Positions 17,115 through 49,411 of a stretch of 53,790 bases of DNA are shown in pieces. How positions within the stretch are numbered: the first letter of the stretch is position 1; the number at the start of each line of letters is the position of its first letter. Made by a program: the position numbers and the translations under genes. The notes beneath the pieces were generated by a model. The model worked only from the letters and a program-made list of their open reading frames with translations. It did no database searches and was not told the origin of the DNA. This DNA is from Candidatus Omnitrophota bacterium (GTDB taxonomy: Bacteria > Omnitrophota > Gorgyraeia > Gygaellales > Profunditerraquicolaceae). The DNA is taken from contig JBDRMO010000030.1 of assembly GCA_043812095.1 (NCBI GenBank), positions 1-53,790 of the forward strand. Reading direction: 5' to 3'.

Positions 17115-19879
<2,765 letters not shown>

Positions 19880-19902
19880 GTGAGTCCCGCATTCTGCGTG
19901 AC

Positions 19903-20025
19903 GAACTTACCCAAGCACTAATTTTTGTATTTGTACCTGAATGCAAATTAGTGCAGGGTTAAATTCGCAGACGCTACAACCAATAATTGGAGGGCTATAA
20001 CTTACGTTATGAAAACGTAAGCTAT
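19903..20025 (+). repeat. bipartite hairpin element, AACTTAC family, copy 1
   Basis: GAACTTACCC, then a roughly 17-bp hairpin (GCACTAATTT..AAATTAGTGC), then GGGTTAAATTCGC. A spacer follows, then ATAACTTACGTT-ATGAA-AACGTAAGCTAT (19997-20025), 12 nt before the gyrA ATG. Confidence 0.6.
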
Positions 20026-20036
20026 CTGCTCATTAA

Positions 20037-22352
20037 ATGTATACTAGAAATGAAAAGATAATTCCGGTTTATATCGAAGAGGAAGTAAAAGATTCTTATT
20101 TGAATTACGCGATGAGCGTAATCGTCGGTCGCGCGCTTCCCGATGTACGTGACGGCCTCAAGCCAGTGCATAGGCGCATACTCTTTGCGATGCAGGAGCT
20201 GAGCCTGAACCATAGCAAGCCTTATAAAAAATGCGCACGTATTACAGGTGAGGTTCTGGGTAAATACCATCCGCACGGAGATACTGCGGTTTACGATACT
20301 CTGGTGAGGATGGCGCAGAGTTTTTCTCTACGCTATCCATTAGTTGAGGGGCAGGGCAACTTCGGATCAGTCGACGGAGATGCGCCTGCCGCGATGCGCT
20401 ACACCGAGGCGCGTTTAGCCGCAATCTCTGATGAGATGTTGGCGGATATTGAAAAGAATACCGTGCGCTTCGGGCCTAATTTTGACTCATCCTTAGAGGA
20501 ACCACTTTTATTGCCGGCTGCCCTGCCCAATCTCTTAGTAAACGGCTCAAGCGGCATAGCTGTGGGAATGGCGACTAATATTCCGCCGCATAATTTAAGA
20601 GAAGTGGCAGATGGGATTGTCTATCTTCTGGATCATCCGCAAGCAGAGATCAAAGACCTGATGAGACATATAACAGGACCGGACTTTCCGACCGGCGGGA
20701 TTATCTGCGGCAAGGGAGGGATCAAAGATGCATATACAACCGGTAGAGGCAAGCTGGAGGTGCGTGCCAGGGCGACTGTGGAGCGTCAAAAAGGCGGTAA
20801 GGACTTAATAATTATTACTGAGATCCCTTATCAGGTGCAGAAAGCAGGGTTGATTGAAACCATGGCCGGGCTGGTAGAGGATAAAAAGATAGAGGGTATC
20901 TCTGATATCCGTGATGAATCCGATAAAGACGGCATGCGTATTGTAGTTGAGCTGAAGCGGGACGTCGAGGCTCAGATTATCCTGAATCAGCTCTTTAAGC
21001 ACACCAGCTTAAAGACTACCTTTGGCGTGATTATGTTGGCTTTAGTAGATAATCGTCCTCGGGTGTTGAATTTACGCCAGGTGCTTGAGTGTTATATTGA
21101 GCATCGTAAGGTGATCATTCGTCGGCGTACCCAGTTTGAATTAGAGAAGGCAGAGAAGCGTGCGCATATTTTAGAGGGATTAAAAATTGCCCTCAAATAT
21201 ATAGACCGGATAGTCAAAACCATCAAGACCTCTAAGTCCACGGAGATTGCCCGCGAACGCCTGGTAAAACAATTCAAGCTTTCCGAGATTCAGGCTCAGG
21301 CAATTTTAGAGATGCAGCTTCAGCGCTTGACTGCGCTTGAGAGAGATAAGATTGATGCCGAATATGCAGAGTTACTCAAAAAAATCGAGCTCTGTAAGAG
21401 TATTCTTGCATCTGAGAAAAAAATCGAAGGCATTATTAAAGAAGAGCTGGAGACTTTAAAGAAAAAATACGGTGACGAGCGCAGGACTGACCTCGTAGGG
21501 GATGTGGAAGAACTGGAGATAGAGGATTTGATTGCCGAAGAGGATGTGGTGGTTACCATAAGCCATGGCGGGTATATTAAACGCCTGCCGGTAAGTGCTT
21601 ACCGTAAGCAAAAGCGCGGTGGCACAGGGTCGACGGGTGCGGGAGTCAAGGAGGAGGATTTTGTCGAACACCTCTTTATCGCTTCGACAAAAGATTATCT
21701 ACTAATTTTTACCAATCAAGGTCAGGTGCATTGGTTAAAAGTGTACGAGATCCCGCAGGCCGGACGCGTTTCTAAAGGGAAGGCAATAGTCAACCTGATA
21801 CAATTGGCATCCGGGGCTAACGTTAGCTCGACTATTCCGGTCAAGGAATTTTCCGCAGATAAATTGTTAGTTATGGTTACCAGGCAGGGGATGGTGAAGA
21901 AGACCCGGCTGGATGCCTATAGTAATCCGCGCAAAGGCGGGATTATCGGGATTACCTTAGACAAGGGCGATGAGCTGATTGGAGTGAATCTATCCGATGG
22001 AAAGCAGGAATTACTCATCGGTACTCGAGAAGGTAAATCTATAAGGTTCCTGGAGACCAAGGTCAGGGATATGGGGAGAACCGCACGCGGCGTACGAGGT
22101 ATTGCTTTAGCCAAGACGGATCGTGTAATCGGTATGGTTTTGGCTGAAAAAGATTCCGCAGTCTTGACAGTGACAGAATTAGGTTTTGCCAAGCGCACGC
22201 CGGTTAAGGAGTATCGTCTCACCAGCCGCGGAGGCAAGGGAGTGATTAACATCAAGGTGACTGATAAGAACGGTGAGGCAATAAGCTTGAAGATGGTAAA
22301 TGATCAAGACGAATTAATGGTGATCACTCAGCACGGCATGTTCCTACGCTGA
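20037..22352 (+). CDS. gyrA: DNA gyrase subunit A, ORF as it stands up to an in-frame TGA
   Basis: 771 aa with [45 protein letters not shown] (catalytic Tyr) and C-terminal pinwheel blades. Confidence 0.95.
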
Positions 22353-22470: not shown

Positions 22471-22544
22471 GTCCCCATCGTCTAGCCTGGTTAGGACAAG
22501 AGCTTTTCAAGCTCTCGACACCGGTTCAAATCCGGTTGGGGACA
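22471..22544 (+). tRNA. tRNA-Glu (UUC)
   Basis: Acceptor GTCCCCA/TGGGGAC, anticodon stem AGAGC/GCTCT with loop TTTTCAA, T arm ACCGG-TTCAAAT-CCGGT. Followed by TTTTT; no CCA encoded. Confidence 0.88.
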
Positions 22545-26855: not shown

Positions 26856-26887
26856 CCCAACCCCAAACTTAAGGAGTTGGGTTTTTT
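26856..26887 (+). terminator. intrinsic terminator of the pyr leader (attenuator)
   Basis: CCCAACCCC / GGAGTTGGG stem with one mismatch, 8-nt loop, followed by TTTTTT (26882-26887). Confidence 0.7.
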
Positions 26888-26896
26888 ATTGAGCGC

Positions 26897-26937
26897 ATAA
26901 CTTACGCAGCACAAAGTGCGCAGTAAGTTATCTGCGC
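26897..26937 (+). repeat. AACTTAC-family hairpin, copy in the pyrR leader
   Basis: ATAACTTAC (26897-26905) pairs with GTAAGTTAT (26923-26931). An alternative pairing is GCGCAG (26918-26923) with CTGCGC (26932-26937). Confidence 0.55.
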
Positions 26938-27029
26938 GAAATAATCCTGAGCTATCAGCTATAGCTATGAGTAGTGAGGGATGAATTGGAGCCAAGGAGC
27001 ATCCCTGGCAACCGATACCTAATTGATAG

Positions 27030-45116: not shown

Positions 45117-45734
45117 TTGGCAAAAATCAAACTGACTAAAGGGGAATTAAAGAGGCAGCGTGATGCCTTGGCGCAATATCAACGCTATCTGCCTACATTA
45201 CAGCTTAAGAAACAACAGTTACAGATAGAGATTTTGCAGCAATCGCAGATCTTGGGGAGCGCAAAACAAAAAGAAGCAGCCAAAAGAAATGAAATTACAC
45301 GCTGGGCAGGATTGCTCTCTGATCAGGGGGTTGATCTTAAGCCATGGGTTAAGCCGCAAGAGATATTTACCGGAGTAAGAAATATCGCCGGAGTGGATCT
45401 GCCTGTTTTTCAGCGCCTGGATTTTAAAGTTGCGGAATACGACCTATTTATTATGCCTTTATGGGTGGATCGGGGCCTGGATGCATTGCAGGCATTAATC
45501 AGTATCCTGGAAGAAAGAAAGGTTATTGAAAAAGGAATCATAATTTTAAGGCAGGAGTTACGGATTACTACTCAGAGGGTTAATTTATTCGAAAAAGTTA
45601 AAATCCCGGAGGCCCGGGAAGCAATACGTTTGATCAAGATCTATATCGGCGATCAGATGACTAATGCCGTAGGCAGAAGCAAGATGGCAAAGAGGAAGAT
45701 CGAGGCTTTAGAGTTAAGTGAAGCCATAGCTTAG
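45117..45734 (+). CDS. atpD: V-type ATPase subunit D
   Basis: 205 aa with a TTG start, AKIKLTKGELKRQRDALAQYQRYLPTLQLKKQQL. Position after B. Confidence 0.85.
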   Translation: MAKIKLTKGELKRQRDALAQYQRYLPTLQLKKQQLQIEILQQSQILGSAKQKEAAKRNEITRWAGLLSDQGVDLKPWVKPQEIFTGVRNIAGVDLPVFQRLDFKVAEYDLFIMPLWVDRGLDALQALISILEERKVIEKGIIILRQELRITTQRVNLFEKVKIPEAREAIRLIKIYIGDQMTNAVGRSKMAKRKIEALELSEAIA

Positions 45735-45871
45735 CGAACGATAGTGAAGCTAAGCTATTCGGCTGAACTTACCCCCACACCAATTGGGAATTCAAGCTTC
45801 GCTATTGACCAATTGGTGTGGGGGTCAAAATCGCCCAAACAACTTACGTTCATTATCATTCCGTAAGTTGT
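45726..45871 (+). repeat. three consecutive perfect hairpins between atpD and atpI, including AACTTAC-family copy 2
   Basis: H1 is ATAGCTTAGC/GCTAAGCTAT (45726-45758, encloses the atpD TAG). GAACTTACCC precedes H2, a 16-bp stem CCCCCACACCAATTGG/CCAATTGGTGTGGGGG (45772-45824), followed by GGGTCAAAATCGC. H3 is ACAACTTACG/CGTAAGTTGT (45839-45871). Confidence 0.8.
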
Positions 45872-45893
45872 GGGCTCATTTGAGGCAGTTTAT

Positions 45894-48958: not shown

Positions 48959-49036
48959 GGGCCCGTGGTGTAGTCTGGTTAACATGTCAGATTGTCGATC
49001 TGAAGATCGCGAGTTCAAATCTCGTCGGGCCCGCCA
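48959..49036 (+). tRNA. tRNA-Asp (GUC), CCA encoded
   Basis: Acceptor GGGCCCG/CGGGCCC, anticodon stem TCAGA/TCTGA with loop TTGTCGA, T arm GCGAG-TTCAAAT-CTCGT, then GCCA. Confidence 0.9.
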
Positions 49037-49411
49037 GTCTTCGCTCAGCACTTAACGTGCAGAGCTTCGCCTGGCTTACGCCAAAATATGCATTGCGTAT
49101 ATATTCTCACCAGCAAAAAAGACAAAAGAAAATTTTATGTAGGTTATACTAATAATCTTCAAAGGCGTCTAGTAGATCACAAAAATCCACCGAAAAATTC
49201 TTACACACATAGATACGGCCCTTGGGCATTAGAGACATATAGTGTATTTTCTGAGAGAAGATTAGCGAAAGCATTTGAGGTATATCTCAAGAGTCATTCT
49301 GGCAGAGCCTTTTTGAGGCGGAGACTAGCAGTTGTATCGTAGAAATCCGGCGTAGCCGTCAGAACTTTTTTGTTTATTATAAGGCGCAGCCGGATCGTCG
49401 GGCCCGCCAGT
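49022..49411 (+). mobile_element. about 0.37-kb insertion at the tRNA-Asp 3' end, bounded by 17-bp direct repeats, carrying a GIY-YIG gene
   Basis: TCGTCGGGCCCGCCAGT occurs at 49022-49038 (the 3' end of tRNA-Asp plus GT) and again at 49395-49411. No integrase is present. Confidence 0.6.
49088..49342 (+). CDS. GIY-YIG nuclease-family protein (small, UPF0213-like)
   Basis: 84 aa, VYILTSKKDKRKFYVGYTNNLQRRLVDH, which gives the GIY..YIG and Arg motif spacing. Confidence 0.75.
   Translation: MHCVYILTSKKDKRKFYVGYTNNLQRRLVDHKNPPKNSYTHRYGPWALETYSVFSERRLAKAFEVYLKSHSGRAFLRRRLAVVS

What the first reader, a model, noticed from the sequence alone, without database searches (positions are those of the whole stretch)
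19903..20025. Bipartite hairpin element with conserved ends and a variable stem (AACTTAC family) between gyrB and gyrA
After the gyrB stop comes GAACTTACCC. Next is a roughly 17-bp hairpin (GCACTAATTT TTGTATT / AATGCAA AAATTAGTGC, loop TGTACCTG), then GGGTTAAATTCGC. After a spacer holding the palindrome CCAATAATTGG lies a second hairpin, ATAACTTACGTT-ATGAA-AACGTAAGCTAT, ending 12 nt before the gyrA ATG, which has no obvious Shine-Dalgarno. The atpD/atpI spacer has the same layout: GAACTTACCC, hairpin, GGGTCAAAATCGC, then ACAACTTACG-loop-CGTAAGTTGT. There the central stem has a completely different sequence. Conserved termini around a stem that keeps pairing but not sequence suggest a structured RNA/DNA element or a small mobile hairpin repeat (REP/MITE-like). 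I do not recognise it as a known family.
Basis: seen in the sequence. Interest (0 to 1): 0.6.

Follow-up and report, generated by a model that had tools for sequence, protein, structure and literature searches.

The report
Three-hairpin selfish repeat between gyrB and gyrA
The hairpins between gyrB and gyrA are one gene-less copy of a three-hairpin mobile DNA repeat that fills stop-to-start gaps throughout uncultured Omnitrophota bacteria; intact relatives carry a tiny GIY-YIG nuclease gene in the middle hairpin, so this is selfish DNA and not a gyrase control signal.

Summary
The element is larger than described: 160 nt (window 19877-20036), running from the first base of the gyrB stop codon to the base before the gyrA ATG. 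It consists of three abutting hairpins: a left arm, a core and a right arm.

The 0.92-Mb assembly holds about 19 loci of the family, three of them in the window. The exact right-arm motif occurs in at least 105 contigs, most of them labelled Omnitrophota MAGs.

Relatives mostly have an empty gyrB-TAA-N-ATG-gyrA junction, or an overlapping ATGA at atpD/atpI. Congeners carry different cores, or only remnants, at the same sites. The element therefore comes and goes.

In other genomes the same three-hairpin unit encloses an 85-88-aa single-domain GIY-YIG nuclease gene in the core loop.

The closest published system is the Ssn nuclease with its SRM hairpin repeats (PMC11893778). Sequence membership in that family is unproven.

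Nothing indicates a gyrase-specific regulatory RNA: there is no Rfam match, no terminator or promoter, and both strands fold equally well.

This scan had already noted the same family in other Omnitrophota genomes. I found no paper describing it.

The parts
19877..19909 (+). Copy 1, left-arm hairpin (TAAGT-GA-GTC..GAC-GA-ACTTA). Its first three bases, TAA, are the gyrB stop codon. The interior hairpin present in the G001 orthologue is deleted here.
   Evidence: Sequence; fold; alignment with G001; arm rules from 147 arms.
19910..19958 (+). Copy 1, core hairpin (CCC-AA-GCACTAATT..AATTAGTGC-A-GGG). This is stem class A and is gene-less. It corresponds to the inverted-repeat pair that encloses a GIY-YIG ORF in intact relatives.
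   Evidence: The same class occurs in G000 C10 and C18 and in other MAGs.
19959..20036 (+). Copy 1, right-arm hairpin (TTAAAT-TC-GC..; a lineage-specific 28-nt insert at 19969-19996 with CCAATAATTGG; inner hairpin ATAACTTACGTT-ATGAA-AACGTAAGCTAT at 19997-20025; tail CTGCTC-ATTAA). It ends directly at the gyrA ATG (20037).
   Evidence: right-arm covariation and boundary; the 28-nt insert is shared with G001.
45715..45771 (+). Copy 2 (atpD/atpI), left-arm hairpin with an intact inner hairpin (ATAGCTTAGCG..GCTAAGCTAT). The atpD reading frame runs through the head and stops at a TAG inside it (45732-45734).
45772..45824 (+). Copy 2, core hairpin (CCCCCACACCAATTGG / CCAATTGGTGTGGGGG), stem class B. 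This is the same class as the inverted repeats around GIY-YIG ORFs in G001 (L047) and G000 C27.
45825..45883 (+). Copy 2, right-arm hairpin (TCAAAA-TC-GCCC..ACAACTTACG-loop-CGTAAGTTGT..GGGC-TC-ATTTGA). Its last bases form part of the GAGG upstream of the atpI ATG (45894).
26886..26944 (-). Copy 3, a right-arm unit only (TTATT-TC-GCGC..AACTTAC..GTAAGTT..GCGC-TC-AATAA) with a decayed left part. It abuts a terminator-like hairpin of the convergent gene.

Best explanation
The gyrB/gyrA spacer is a non-autonomous (gene-less) copy of a phylum-wide, insertion-prone mosaic element of Omnitrophota. The element consists of three abutting DNA hairpins.

The two outer hairpins ('arms') are inverted copies of one roughly 60-75-nt unit. 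Each arm has:
- a 5-bp A/T basal helix;
- a conserved unpaired GA/GA internal loop (TC/TC on the other strand);
- a GCRC/GYGC helix;
- an AACTTAYG hairpin.

The middle hairpin is the terminal inverted-repeat pair of a mini-element. In intact copies its loop encodes an 85-88-aa single-domain GIY-YIG nuclease.

The element occupies gene junctions where stop and start were originally 0-3 nt apart or overlapping. Its first bases supply stop codons in two frames (TAAGTGA). Its last base lies 0-25 nt before the next gene's ATG or Shine-Dalgarno sequence. The operon therefore survives the insertion.

The gyrB/gyrA copy was present in the common ancestor of G000 and G001. Since then it has lost the interior of its left arm and changed its core class.

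What is shown: the anatomy, the copy number, filled versus empty sites, module exchange between congeners, the ORF-bearing relatives and the orientation bias.

What is inferred: mobilisation and copy-to-copy conversion are driven by the GIY-YIG nuclease acting on the hairpins as single-stranded DNA, as Ssn nucleases act on SRM hairpins. Because the arms are inverted, the same recognisable strand form (GA/GA) lies on the top strand at the left end and on the bottom strand at the right end. A nuclease that cuts a few bases 5' of its hairpin would then cut at both outer boundaries.

The element is most likely carried passively in the gyrBA transcript.
For: Copies:
- About 19 loci in G000.
- 12 of 41 relatives have the exact right-arm pattern, against 0 for the reversed control.
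- At least 105 contigs, most labelled Omnitrophota MAGs.

Insertion polymorphism:
- gyrB-gyrA is 'TAA-N-ATG' in at least 9 relatives. It is filled only in G000, G001 and G012.
- atpD/atpI is an ATGA overlap in relatives and filled only in G000 and G001.
- At the C16 locus G001 keeps only a 17-nt head remnant.
- At the C47 and C10 loci three congeners carry different cores, inner hairpins or another palindrome.
- The G000 and G001 gyrBA copies share a unique 28-nt insert but differ in core class.

Hairpin constraint:
- GCRC/GYGC helix: 69 of 72 Watson-Crick pairs in two states.
- The basal helix covaries, and complementarity stops after pair 5.

GIY-YIG link:
- An ORF lies inside the core loop of full three-hairpin elements in L047 (G001), L102 (G002), L050/L106 (G032), L097 (G156) and L118 (G046).
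- 9 of 55 small GIY-YIG loci are bracketed by inverted repeats of at least 16 nt, against a shuffle maximum of 13.
- The ORFs are PF01541-only proteins.

Orientation:
- 55 of 80 right arms are followed within 45 nt by a same-strand ORF, against 7 of 80 in the control.

Published analogue: Ssn/SRM.
Against: - No nuclease activity, transposition intermediate or target-site duplication is demonstrated. The TAA at both ends turned out to be part of the arm helices.
- Only about 1 in 10-80 copies carries the ORF. G000 has just two small GIY-YIG ORFs, and neither sits in a full three-hairpin element.
- The arms could be an independent repeat into which GIY-YIG cores nest, so the nuclease need not recognise them.
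- The strong sense-orientation bias and the exact stop-to-start fit would also suit a function at the RNA level.
- Membership of the ORFs in the Ssn clade (cd10448) could not be tested, and the published NTS/dRS3 core is absent.
Confidence: 0.75

Rival explanations
1. Operon-punctuation RNA. The three hairpins function in the mRNA as a processing, stabilising or translation-coupling module. They would be kept because they hold the upstream stop and the downstream start together or protect the cistrons. This is compatible with a selfish origin.
For: - Sense-orientation bias: 55 of 80 against 7 of 80, and about 14 sense to 1 antisense among G000 copies between co-directional genes.
- The element spans exactly from stop codon to start codon.
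- 21 of the 55 right arms with a downstream ORF sit 0-6 nt before its start codon; none of the G000 examples of this kind shows a Shine-Dalgarno sequence.
- Strong fold, z = -5.5.
Against: - Most relatives manage the same junctions without it.
- It sits at unrelated genes.
- Sense and antisense strands fold equally well: 8 against 7 copies, with similar z on both strands.
- The GA/GA internal loop is conserved rather than compensated, which points to sequence-specific recognition.
- No Rfam family matches and there is no terminator or promoter.
- One antisense copy (C21) is tolerated between ribD-like and ribE-like genes.
Confidence: 0.12
2. REP/BIME or REPIN system mobilised by a RAYT (Y1, IS200-like) transposase.
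For: - Inverted doublets of a palindromic unit around a spacer hairpin, with mosaic, exchangeable modules.
- G000 encodes one RAYT-like 157-aa protein, and 30 of 41 relatives have PF01797 hits.
Against: - The G000 RAYT gene is flanked by its own, different inverted hairpins (GGGACGGTTCT..AGTGTCCC). These occur only there.
- None of six Y1 loci fetched contains an arm unit.
- The units carry no GTAG or CGTC tag.
Confidence: 0.05
3. A domesticated nuclease/hairpin system like NTS/SsnA of Neisseria. The dispersed hairpins would serve the host as marks that modulate recombination or uptake of single-stranded DNA, and would not act as a transposon.
For: - Same parts list as Ssn/SRM.
- Long persistence of the arm sequence across families of an order and across many MAGs.
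Against: - The copies sit at stop/start junctions of housekeeping operons, not around particular gene classes.
- The nuclease genes are multi-copy, variable in position and often missing.
- Rapid gain, loss and module exchange between congeners.
Confidence: 0.08

Closest known systems
Ssn nucleases with SRM/NTS hairpin repeats (Chenal et al., Nat Commun 2025, PMC11893778)
   Same: - A roughly 90-aa single-domain GIY-YIG protein.
- The gene is flanked on both sides by hairpin-forming repeats.
- The same hairpins are dispersed in many gene-less copies, mostly intergenic.
- The hairpins carry conserved non-palindromic features that give them an orientation.
- The authors themselves note an IS-like architecture.
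   Different: - The repeat sequence is unrelated: no ATTCCC-N8-GGGAAT core in G000.
- Here the ORF lies inside one hairpin loop that is itself flanked by two further hairpins.
- Copies sit exactly on stop/start junctions, and empty and filled orthologous sites are documented.
- The enzyme's activity and its cd10448 membership are untested here.
Bacterial MITEs such as Correia/NEMIS (Neisseria) and ERIC/IRU (enterobacteria)
   Same: - Roughly 100-200-bp imperfect palindromes without genes.
- Many copies in transcribed intergenic regions.
- Presence/absence variation between relatives.
- Strong hairpins when transcribed.
   Different: - No DDE-transposase parent is evident, and no clear target duplication.
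- Modular three-hairpin build with exchangeable core.
- The coding relatives carry a GIY-YIG nuclease.
REP / BIME / REPIN elements with RAYT transposases (PMC3116915, PMC2817692)
   Same: Inverted doublets of a short palindromic unit, mosaic clusters, persistence over long times, and recognition thought to be of ssDNA hairpins.
   Different: - No GTAG or CGTC tag.
- A/T-rich bases.
- The RAYT in this genome is flanked by other hairpins.
BOX elements of Streptococcus pneumoniae (boxA-boxB-boxC); recalled from my own knowledge, not checked here
   Same: Three-module intergenic repeat whose outer modules are complementary and whose middle module varies.
   Different: Unrelated sequence and phylum. 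No associated nuclease gene is known.
Free-standing GIY-YIG homing endonuclease genes of T4-like phages (Seg proteins; PMC2988022)
   Same: A GIY-YIG gene sitting between conserved genes with presence/absence polymorphism. Spread is thought to occur by cutting the empty allele.
   Different: Seg proteins have a DNA-binding domain and no hairpin shell. The Omnitrophota proteins are the catalytic domain only.

Membership tests
Ssn/SRM system (PMC11893778) | Single-domain GIY-YIG protein of about 94 aa | tested here: met
   The ORFs in L047, L050, L053 and window 49088-49342 are 84-88 aa. PF01541 scores 62-70 bits, with only weak overlapping hits to the related T5orf172 and MUG113 families. The window's hairpin copies themselves are gene-less.
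Ssn/SRM system (PMC11893778) | Protein falls in the CDD cd10448 clade | not testable with these tools
   No CDD library or SsnA sequence is on hand. The nearest solved structures are UPF0213 proteins 1ZG2 and 1YWL (E = 1e-7 and 4e-6), followed by SLX1. NCBIfam gives only weak hits.
Ssn/SRM system (PMC11893778) | Nuclease gene flanked on both sides by hairpin-forming repeats that are also dispersed in the genome | tested here: met
   Full arms plus core inverted repeats surround the ORF in L047, L102, L050/L106, L097 and L118. 9 of 55 loci have inverted repeats of at least 16 nt, against a shuffle maximum of 13. G000 holds about 19 dispersed loci.
Ssn/SRM system (PMC11893778) | Repeat matches the NTS/dRS3/SRM consensus | tested here: not met
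   ATTCCC-N8-GGGAAT gives 0 matches in G000. The looser TCCCGC..GCGGGA gives 1 unrelated match.
Ssn/SRM system (PMC11893778) | Strand-specific ssDNA binding and cleavage a few nt 5' of the hairpin | not testable with these tools
   This needs purified protein and oligonucleotides.
MITE | Short, non-coding, multi-copy, with presence/absence at orthologous sites | tested here: met
MITE | Terminal inverted repeats | tested here: met
   The left arm is the inverted counterpart of the right arm (GA/GA against TC/TC loops; TAAGT..ACTTA against TAAAT..ATTTA). Based on 147 arms.
MITE | Target-site duplication | tested here: inconclusive
   TAA flanks both ends in 10 of 11 complete G000 copies. However, these bases belong to the covarying basal helices of the arms. 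Empty sites are consistent with duplications of 0 to 3 nt.
MITE | Autonomous parent with the same ends encoding a transposase | tested here: inconclusive
   Coding versions with the same three hairpins exist. They encode a GIY-YIG nuclease, for which transposase activity is not established.
REP/REPIN-RAYT | RAYT gene flanked by the same repeats | tested here: not met
   The RAYT-like gene at G000 C23:3720-4193 is flanked by unrelated hairpins found only there. No arm unit occurs in six Y1 loci.
REP/REPIN-RAYT | GTAG or CGTC tag at the foot of the palindrome | tested here: not met
   Arm feet read T(A/T/C)A(A/G)T-GA or -TC.
Any Rfam RNA family | Covariance-model match | tested here: not met
   At gathering threshold only tRNAs match in the window. 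E-value mode on 19850-20060 gives only sub-threshold chance hits.
Free-standing GIY-YIG homing endonuclease (Seg type) | Nuclease domain joined to a DNA-binding domain | tested here: not met
   The proteins are 85-88 aa and consist of the catalytic domain only.

The most novel reading that the evidence does not exclude
The family is a new kind of transposon. A catalytic-domain-only GIY-YIG ssDNA nuclease would act as the mobilising enzyme. The two inverted arm hairpins place its strand-specific cut sites at both outer boundaries. The ends have evolved to rebuild a stop codon and a start context, so the element can live on the stop/start junctions of essential operons such as gyrBA without harm. 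It would be an 'operon-safe' hairpin transposon whose core cassettes spread between copies by homing.
Probability: 0.3. Interest if true: 0.85.

Novelty: new variant of a known kind. Interest (0 to 1): 0.5.

Why it matters
The finding explains a conspicuous, strongly folded 160-nt spacer inside an essential gyrase operon as selfish DNA. That prevents it being mis-annotated as a regulatory RNA.

More broadly, the family gives genomic evidence for something the Ssn paper could only suggest: that hairpin repeats tied to tiny GIY-YIG nucleases behave as mobile elements. The evidence consists of empty and filled sites, remnants, and module exchange between sister species.

If the nuclease proves to cut the arms, these pairs would add new sequence specificities to the ssDNA-nuclease toolbox. 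They would also define a transposition route that uses neither DDE nor tyrosine or serine enzymes.

The repeats also break assemblies. Several G000 contigs end in them, which matters for binning and finishing Omnitrophota genomes.

Tried and rejected
1. TSD = TAA. I first read the TAA at both ends as a 3-bp target duplication. Covariation of the arm basal helices showed these bases are part of the element, so the idea is withdrawn.
2. UUCG tetraloops as an RNA hallmark in the inner right-arm hairpins. In correct register they are TTC triloops closed by C-G (sequences), so the idea is withdrawn.
3. Strand asymmetry. Sense RNA is more stable in 8 copies and antisense in 7. Rare mismatches are 2 A-C against 1 G-T. 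There is no sign of a single functional strand.
4. RAYT link: rejected.
5. ORF remnants in long core loops (C10, L144, L007, L166). tblastn gave only tiny matches on inconsistent strands.
6. Rfam and the promoter/terminator scan found nothing.
7. Literature searches for Omnitrophota with GIY-YIG, palindromic, MITE or REPIN found no description of the family.
9. The Ssn paper holds no supplementary text here, so no SsnA sequence was available for a direct comparison.

Full report
**Observation**

- GAACTTACCC at 19903-19912.
- A hairpin of about 16 bp, GCACTAATTTTTGTATT / TGTACCTG / AATGCAAATTAGTGC.
- GGGTTAAATTCGC at 19956-19968.
- The palindrome CCAATAATTGG.
- A second hairpin, ATAACTTACGTT-ATGAA-AACGTAAGCTAT, at 19997-20025.
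- The gyrA ATG at 20037, with no Shine-Dalgarno sequence.

The atpD/atpI spacer has the same layout at 45765-45874.

AACTTACG occurs 6 times in the window against 0.97 expected, and 0 of 100 shuffles reach 6. The stretch 19877-20039 folds far better than shuffles on both strands, with z = -5.5 and -5.4.

**True extent and anatomy**

Comparing copies shows three abutting hairpins.

The left arm starts with the T of the upstream stop codon. Its order is:
- TAAGT, the 5' strand of a 5-bp basal helix;
- an unpaired GA;
- a 4-bp helix;
- AT;
- an inner AAGTTATGG...CATAACTT hairpin;
- the return strands, ending GA-ACTTA.

The core hairpin follows directly (CCC...GGG).

The right arm is the inverted counterpart of the left arm: TTAAT or TAAAT, then TC, then GCRC, AT, AACTTACG...CGTAAGTT, AT, GYGC, TC, and ATTAA or ATTTA.

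- GAACTTACCC = internal loop, plus the 3' strand of the left-arm base, plus the first bases of the core.
- GGGTTAAATTCGC = end of the core, plus the right-arm base, plus the internal loop.

Pair counts support this reading:
- In 147 arm units from G000 and many other genomes, basal-helix pairs 1-5 are complementary in 114-131 cases.
- Those pairs covary. Pair 2 is A:T in 93 and G:C in 29. Pair 4 is A:T in 64, T:A in 39, C:G in 7 and G:C in 4.
- Pairs 6-8 drop to 41, 21 and 19, which fixes the boundaries. The same holds for 73 right arms.
- The GCRC/GYGC helix is G:C in 47, A:T in 22 and mismatched in 3.
- The GA/GA (or TC/TC) loop is conserved and never compensated. That suggests sequence-specific recognition and not mere pairing.

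By these rules the window copies are:
- Copy 1: 19877-20036, 160 nt. It runs from the first base of the gyrB stop to the base before the gyrA ATG.
- Copy 2: 45715-45883.
- Copy 3: a right arm only, at 26886-26944 on the minus strand.

**Abundance and distribution**

- A profile of the right arm finds about 19 loci in the 917-kb, 85-contig assembly. Several sit at contig ends.
- The exact right-arm pattern occurs in 12 of 41 relatives, including four other families of the order. The reversed control gives none.
Most are labelled Candidatus Omnitrophota or Omnitrophica; about two dozen are auto-labelled Planctomycetia or Planctomycetales, a few are unclassified, and one is labelled Syntrophomonadaceae.

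**It comes and goes**

- *gyrB/gyrA.* Of 30 junctions fetched, at least nine read gyrB-TAA-(1-3 nt)-ATG-gyrA. Only three are filled: G000, its congener G001, and G012 of another genus, which has a divergent copy.
- *G000 against G001 at gyrBA.* The two copies share a unique 28-nt insert and the right arm, so they are orthologous. G000 has lost the interior of the left arm. The core stems differ: GCACTAATT/AATTAGTGC against ACACCAATT/AATTGGTGT. Both classes exist elsewhere in G000.
- *atpD/atpI.* In 14 of the 18 junctions from other genera the stop and start overlap (ATGA or TTGA); three others have longer spacers without the element and one has adjacent TAG-ATG. Only G000 and G001 carry the element. 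In those two the atpD C-terminus is rewritten by reading into the head.
- *C16 locus.* G001 keeps only the first 17 nt of the head, fused to a TTG start.
- *C47 locus.* G000, G001 and G002 have three different configurations.
- *C10 locus.* G001 has a different A/T-rich palindrome with the same termini, TAAGTAA...CTCATTTA.

I first took the TAA at both ends for a target duplication. The covariation above shows these bases belong to the arms. The target and any duplication remain unresolved.

**Context**

- In G000, about 14 copies lie in sense orientation between co-directional genes. One copy (C21) is antisense.
- The head, TAAGTGA, provides the actual stop of the upstream ORF as TAA in four cases and as TGA in two.
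- Across 80 loci from other MAGs, 55 right arms are followed within 45 nt by a same-strand ORF of at least 60 aa. The opposite-orientation control gives 7.
- Distances fall into two groups: 0-6 nt, where the G000 examples show ATG directly after the tail with no Shine-Dalgarno sequence, and 12-25 nt, where copies often carry one.

**Link to a nuclease**

I tested this.

- Small PF01541 ORFs are common in the group: 40 of 41 relatives have GIY-YIG (PF01541) hits (counting uvrC as well as the small ORFs), and 102 of 201 genomes of the order have homologues of the G000 protein.
- Five fetched loci hold the ORF inside the core loop of a complete three-hairpin element, in sense orientation. They are G001 (L047), G002 (L102), G032 (L050/L106), G156 (L097) and G046 (L118). 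They use core classes that also occur gene-less in G000.
- In G000 itself, C27 holds an ORF with core-class-B-like inverted repeats but no arms, between trpC-like and trpF-like genes.
- Other relatives are bare cores that split ATGA overlaps. The ORF then reads from the host ATG, and a GTG start is rebuilt for the downstream gene, for example nrdR.
- Nine of 55 distinct small GIY-YIG loci are bracketed by inverted repeats of at least 16 nt. The shuffle maximum is 13.
- The proteins are the catalytic domain only. The nearest solved structures are UPF0213 proteins, then SLX1.

**Comparison with what is known**

No Rfam family matches. The element contains no promoter-like or terminator-like site.

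The RAYT-like gene of G000 is flanked by unrelated hairpins that occur only there. No arm unit lies near six Y1 loci.

The closest published system is Ssn/SRM (PMC11893778). Its features are:
- a 94-aa single-domain GIY-YIG nuclease;
- binding of a hairpin repeat only as ssDNA and only on one strand;
- cleavage a few nt 5' of the hairpin;
- a gene usually flanked by the hairpins, an architecture the authors call IS-like.

The Omnitrophota repeats share that parts list but not the SRM sequence. Clade membership of the proteins could not be tested.

My searches found no paper describing the Omnitrophota family. This scan, however, has noted the family or closely related ones several times on other DNA.

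**Mechanism**

What is shown: a mosaic hairpin element that inserts at, is lost from, and exchanges modules at gene junctions. Its coding relatives carry a GIY-YIG nuclease.

What is inferred: the nuclease recognises the hairpins as ssDNA. Because the arms are inverted, the GA/GA form lies on the top strand at the left end and on the bottom strand at the right end. An Ssn-like cut 5' of each hairpin would therefore fall at both outer boundaries. Dispersed arms would also give the homology needed for core cassettes to move between copies.

The sense bias may come from three sources: the coding parent needs read-through expression, the ssDNA step may be strand-specific, or selection may act at the RNA level.

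Sense and antisense strands fold equally well, so I see no evidence for one functional RNA strand.

**Verdict**

The finding is real and correctly interpreted as a mobile hairpin repeat. It is not specific to gyrase. It is a new variant of the recently recognised nuclease-plus-hairpin-repeat kind, and this scan had already encountered it.

Noticed in passing
window 48959-49410: A second small GIY-YIG ORF (49088-49342, 84 aa, PF01541 at 62 bits) lies directly after a tRNA gene (48959-49033). The tRNA 3' end, tcgtcgggcccgccag, is repeated at 49393-49410, as if the cassette had inserted at the tRNA 3' end.
   Followed up: partly
L064-L066 (G024, G008, G016), downstream of gyrA; also L103, L108, L111, L113, L117, L119, L120, L123: GIY-YIG ORFs sit next to or inside tRNA genes, with half of the tRNA duplicated. 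In L064 and L065 (and in L119) the ORF ends inside the copied 5' half of the tRNA (...SPSSSLV* in L064/L065); in L066 the duplicated 5' half follows the ORF.
   Followed up: partly
G000 C23:3720-4193 (minus strand): A single RAYT-like Y1 transposase gene (157 aa, PF01797 at 75 bits) is flanked by its own inverted hairpins, GGGACGGTTCT..AGTGTCCC. These occur almost nowhere else in the assembly.
   Followed up: partly
G026:C9, G009:C1, G035:C27, G003:C97: gyrA open frames of 1137-1346 aa with split matches to the N-terminus, against about 815 aa in other relatives. This looks like an intein-type insertion.
   Followed up: no
window 20037-22352: The gyrA open frame here is 771 aa, against 809-837 aa in most relatives. 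A tRNA follows at 22471. The C-terminal end may be shortened.
   Followed up: no
G001:C36:9696-9829 (L245): At the orthologue of the G000 C10 site sits a different A/T-rich long palindrome (AGTAACTAGTAA repeats). It has the same outer termini, TAAGTAA...CTCATTTA, and a Shine-Dalgarno sequence follows it.
   Followed up: no
G000 C16:30512-30545: A mini-copy made only of head plus tail (TAAGTGAGGATATAAGTAAAGAGTTCATTTAAG) lies between a 139-aa ORF stop and the next gene's Shine-Dalgarno sequence. It is probably a deletion remnant.
   Followed up: no
Genome-contig loci L125, L130, L139 and others: About two dozen MAGs carrying the exact Omnitrophota right-arm motif are labelled 'uncultured Planctomycetia/Planctomycetales', a few are unclassified ('bacterium'), and one is labelled 'Syntrophomonadaceae'. 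These may be automated taxonomy labels or mis-binned contigs.
   Followed up: no
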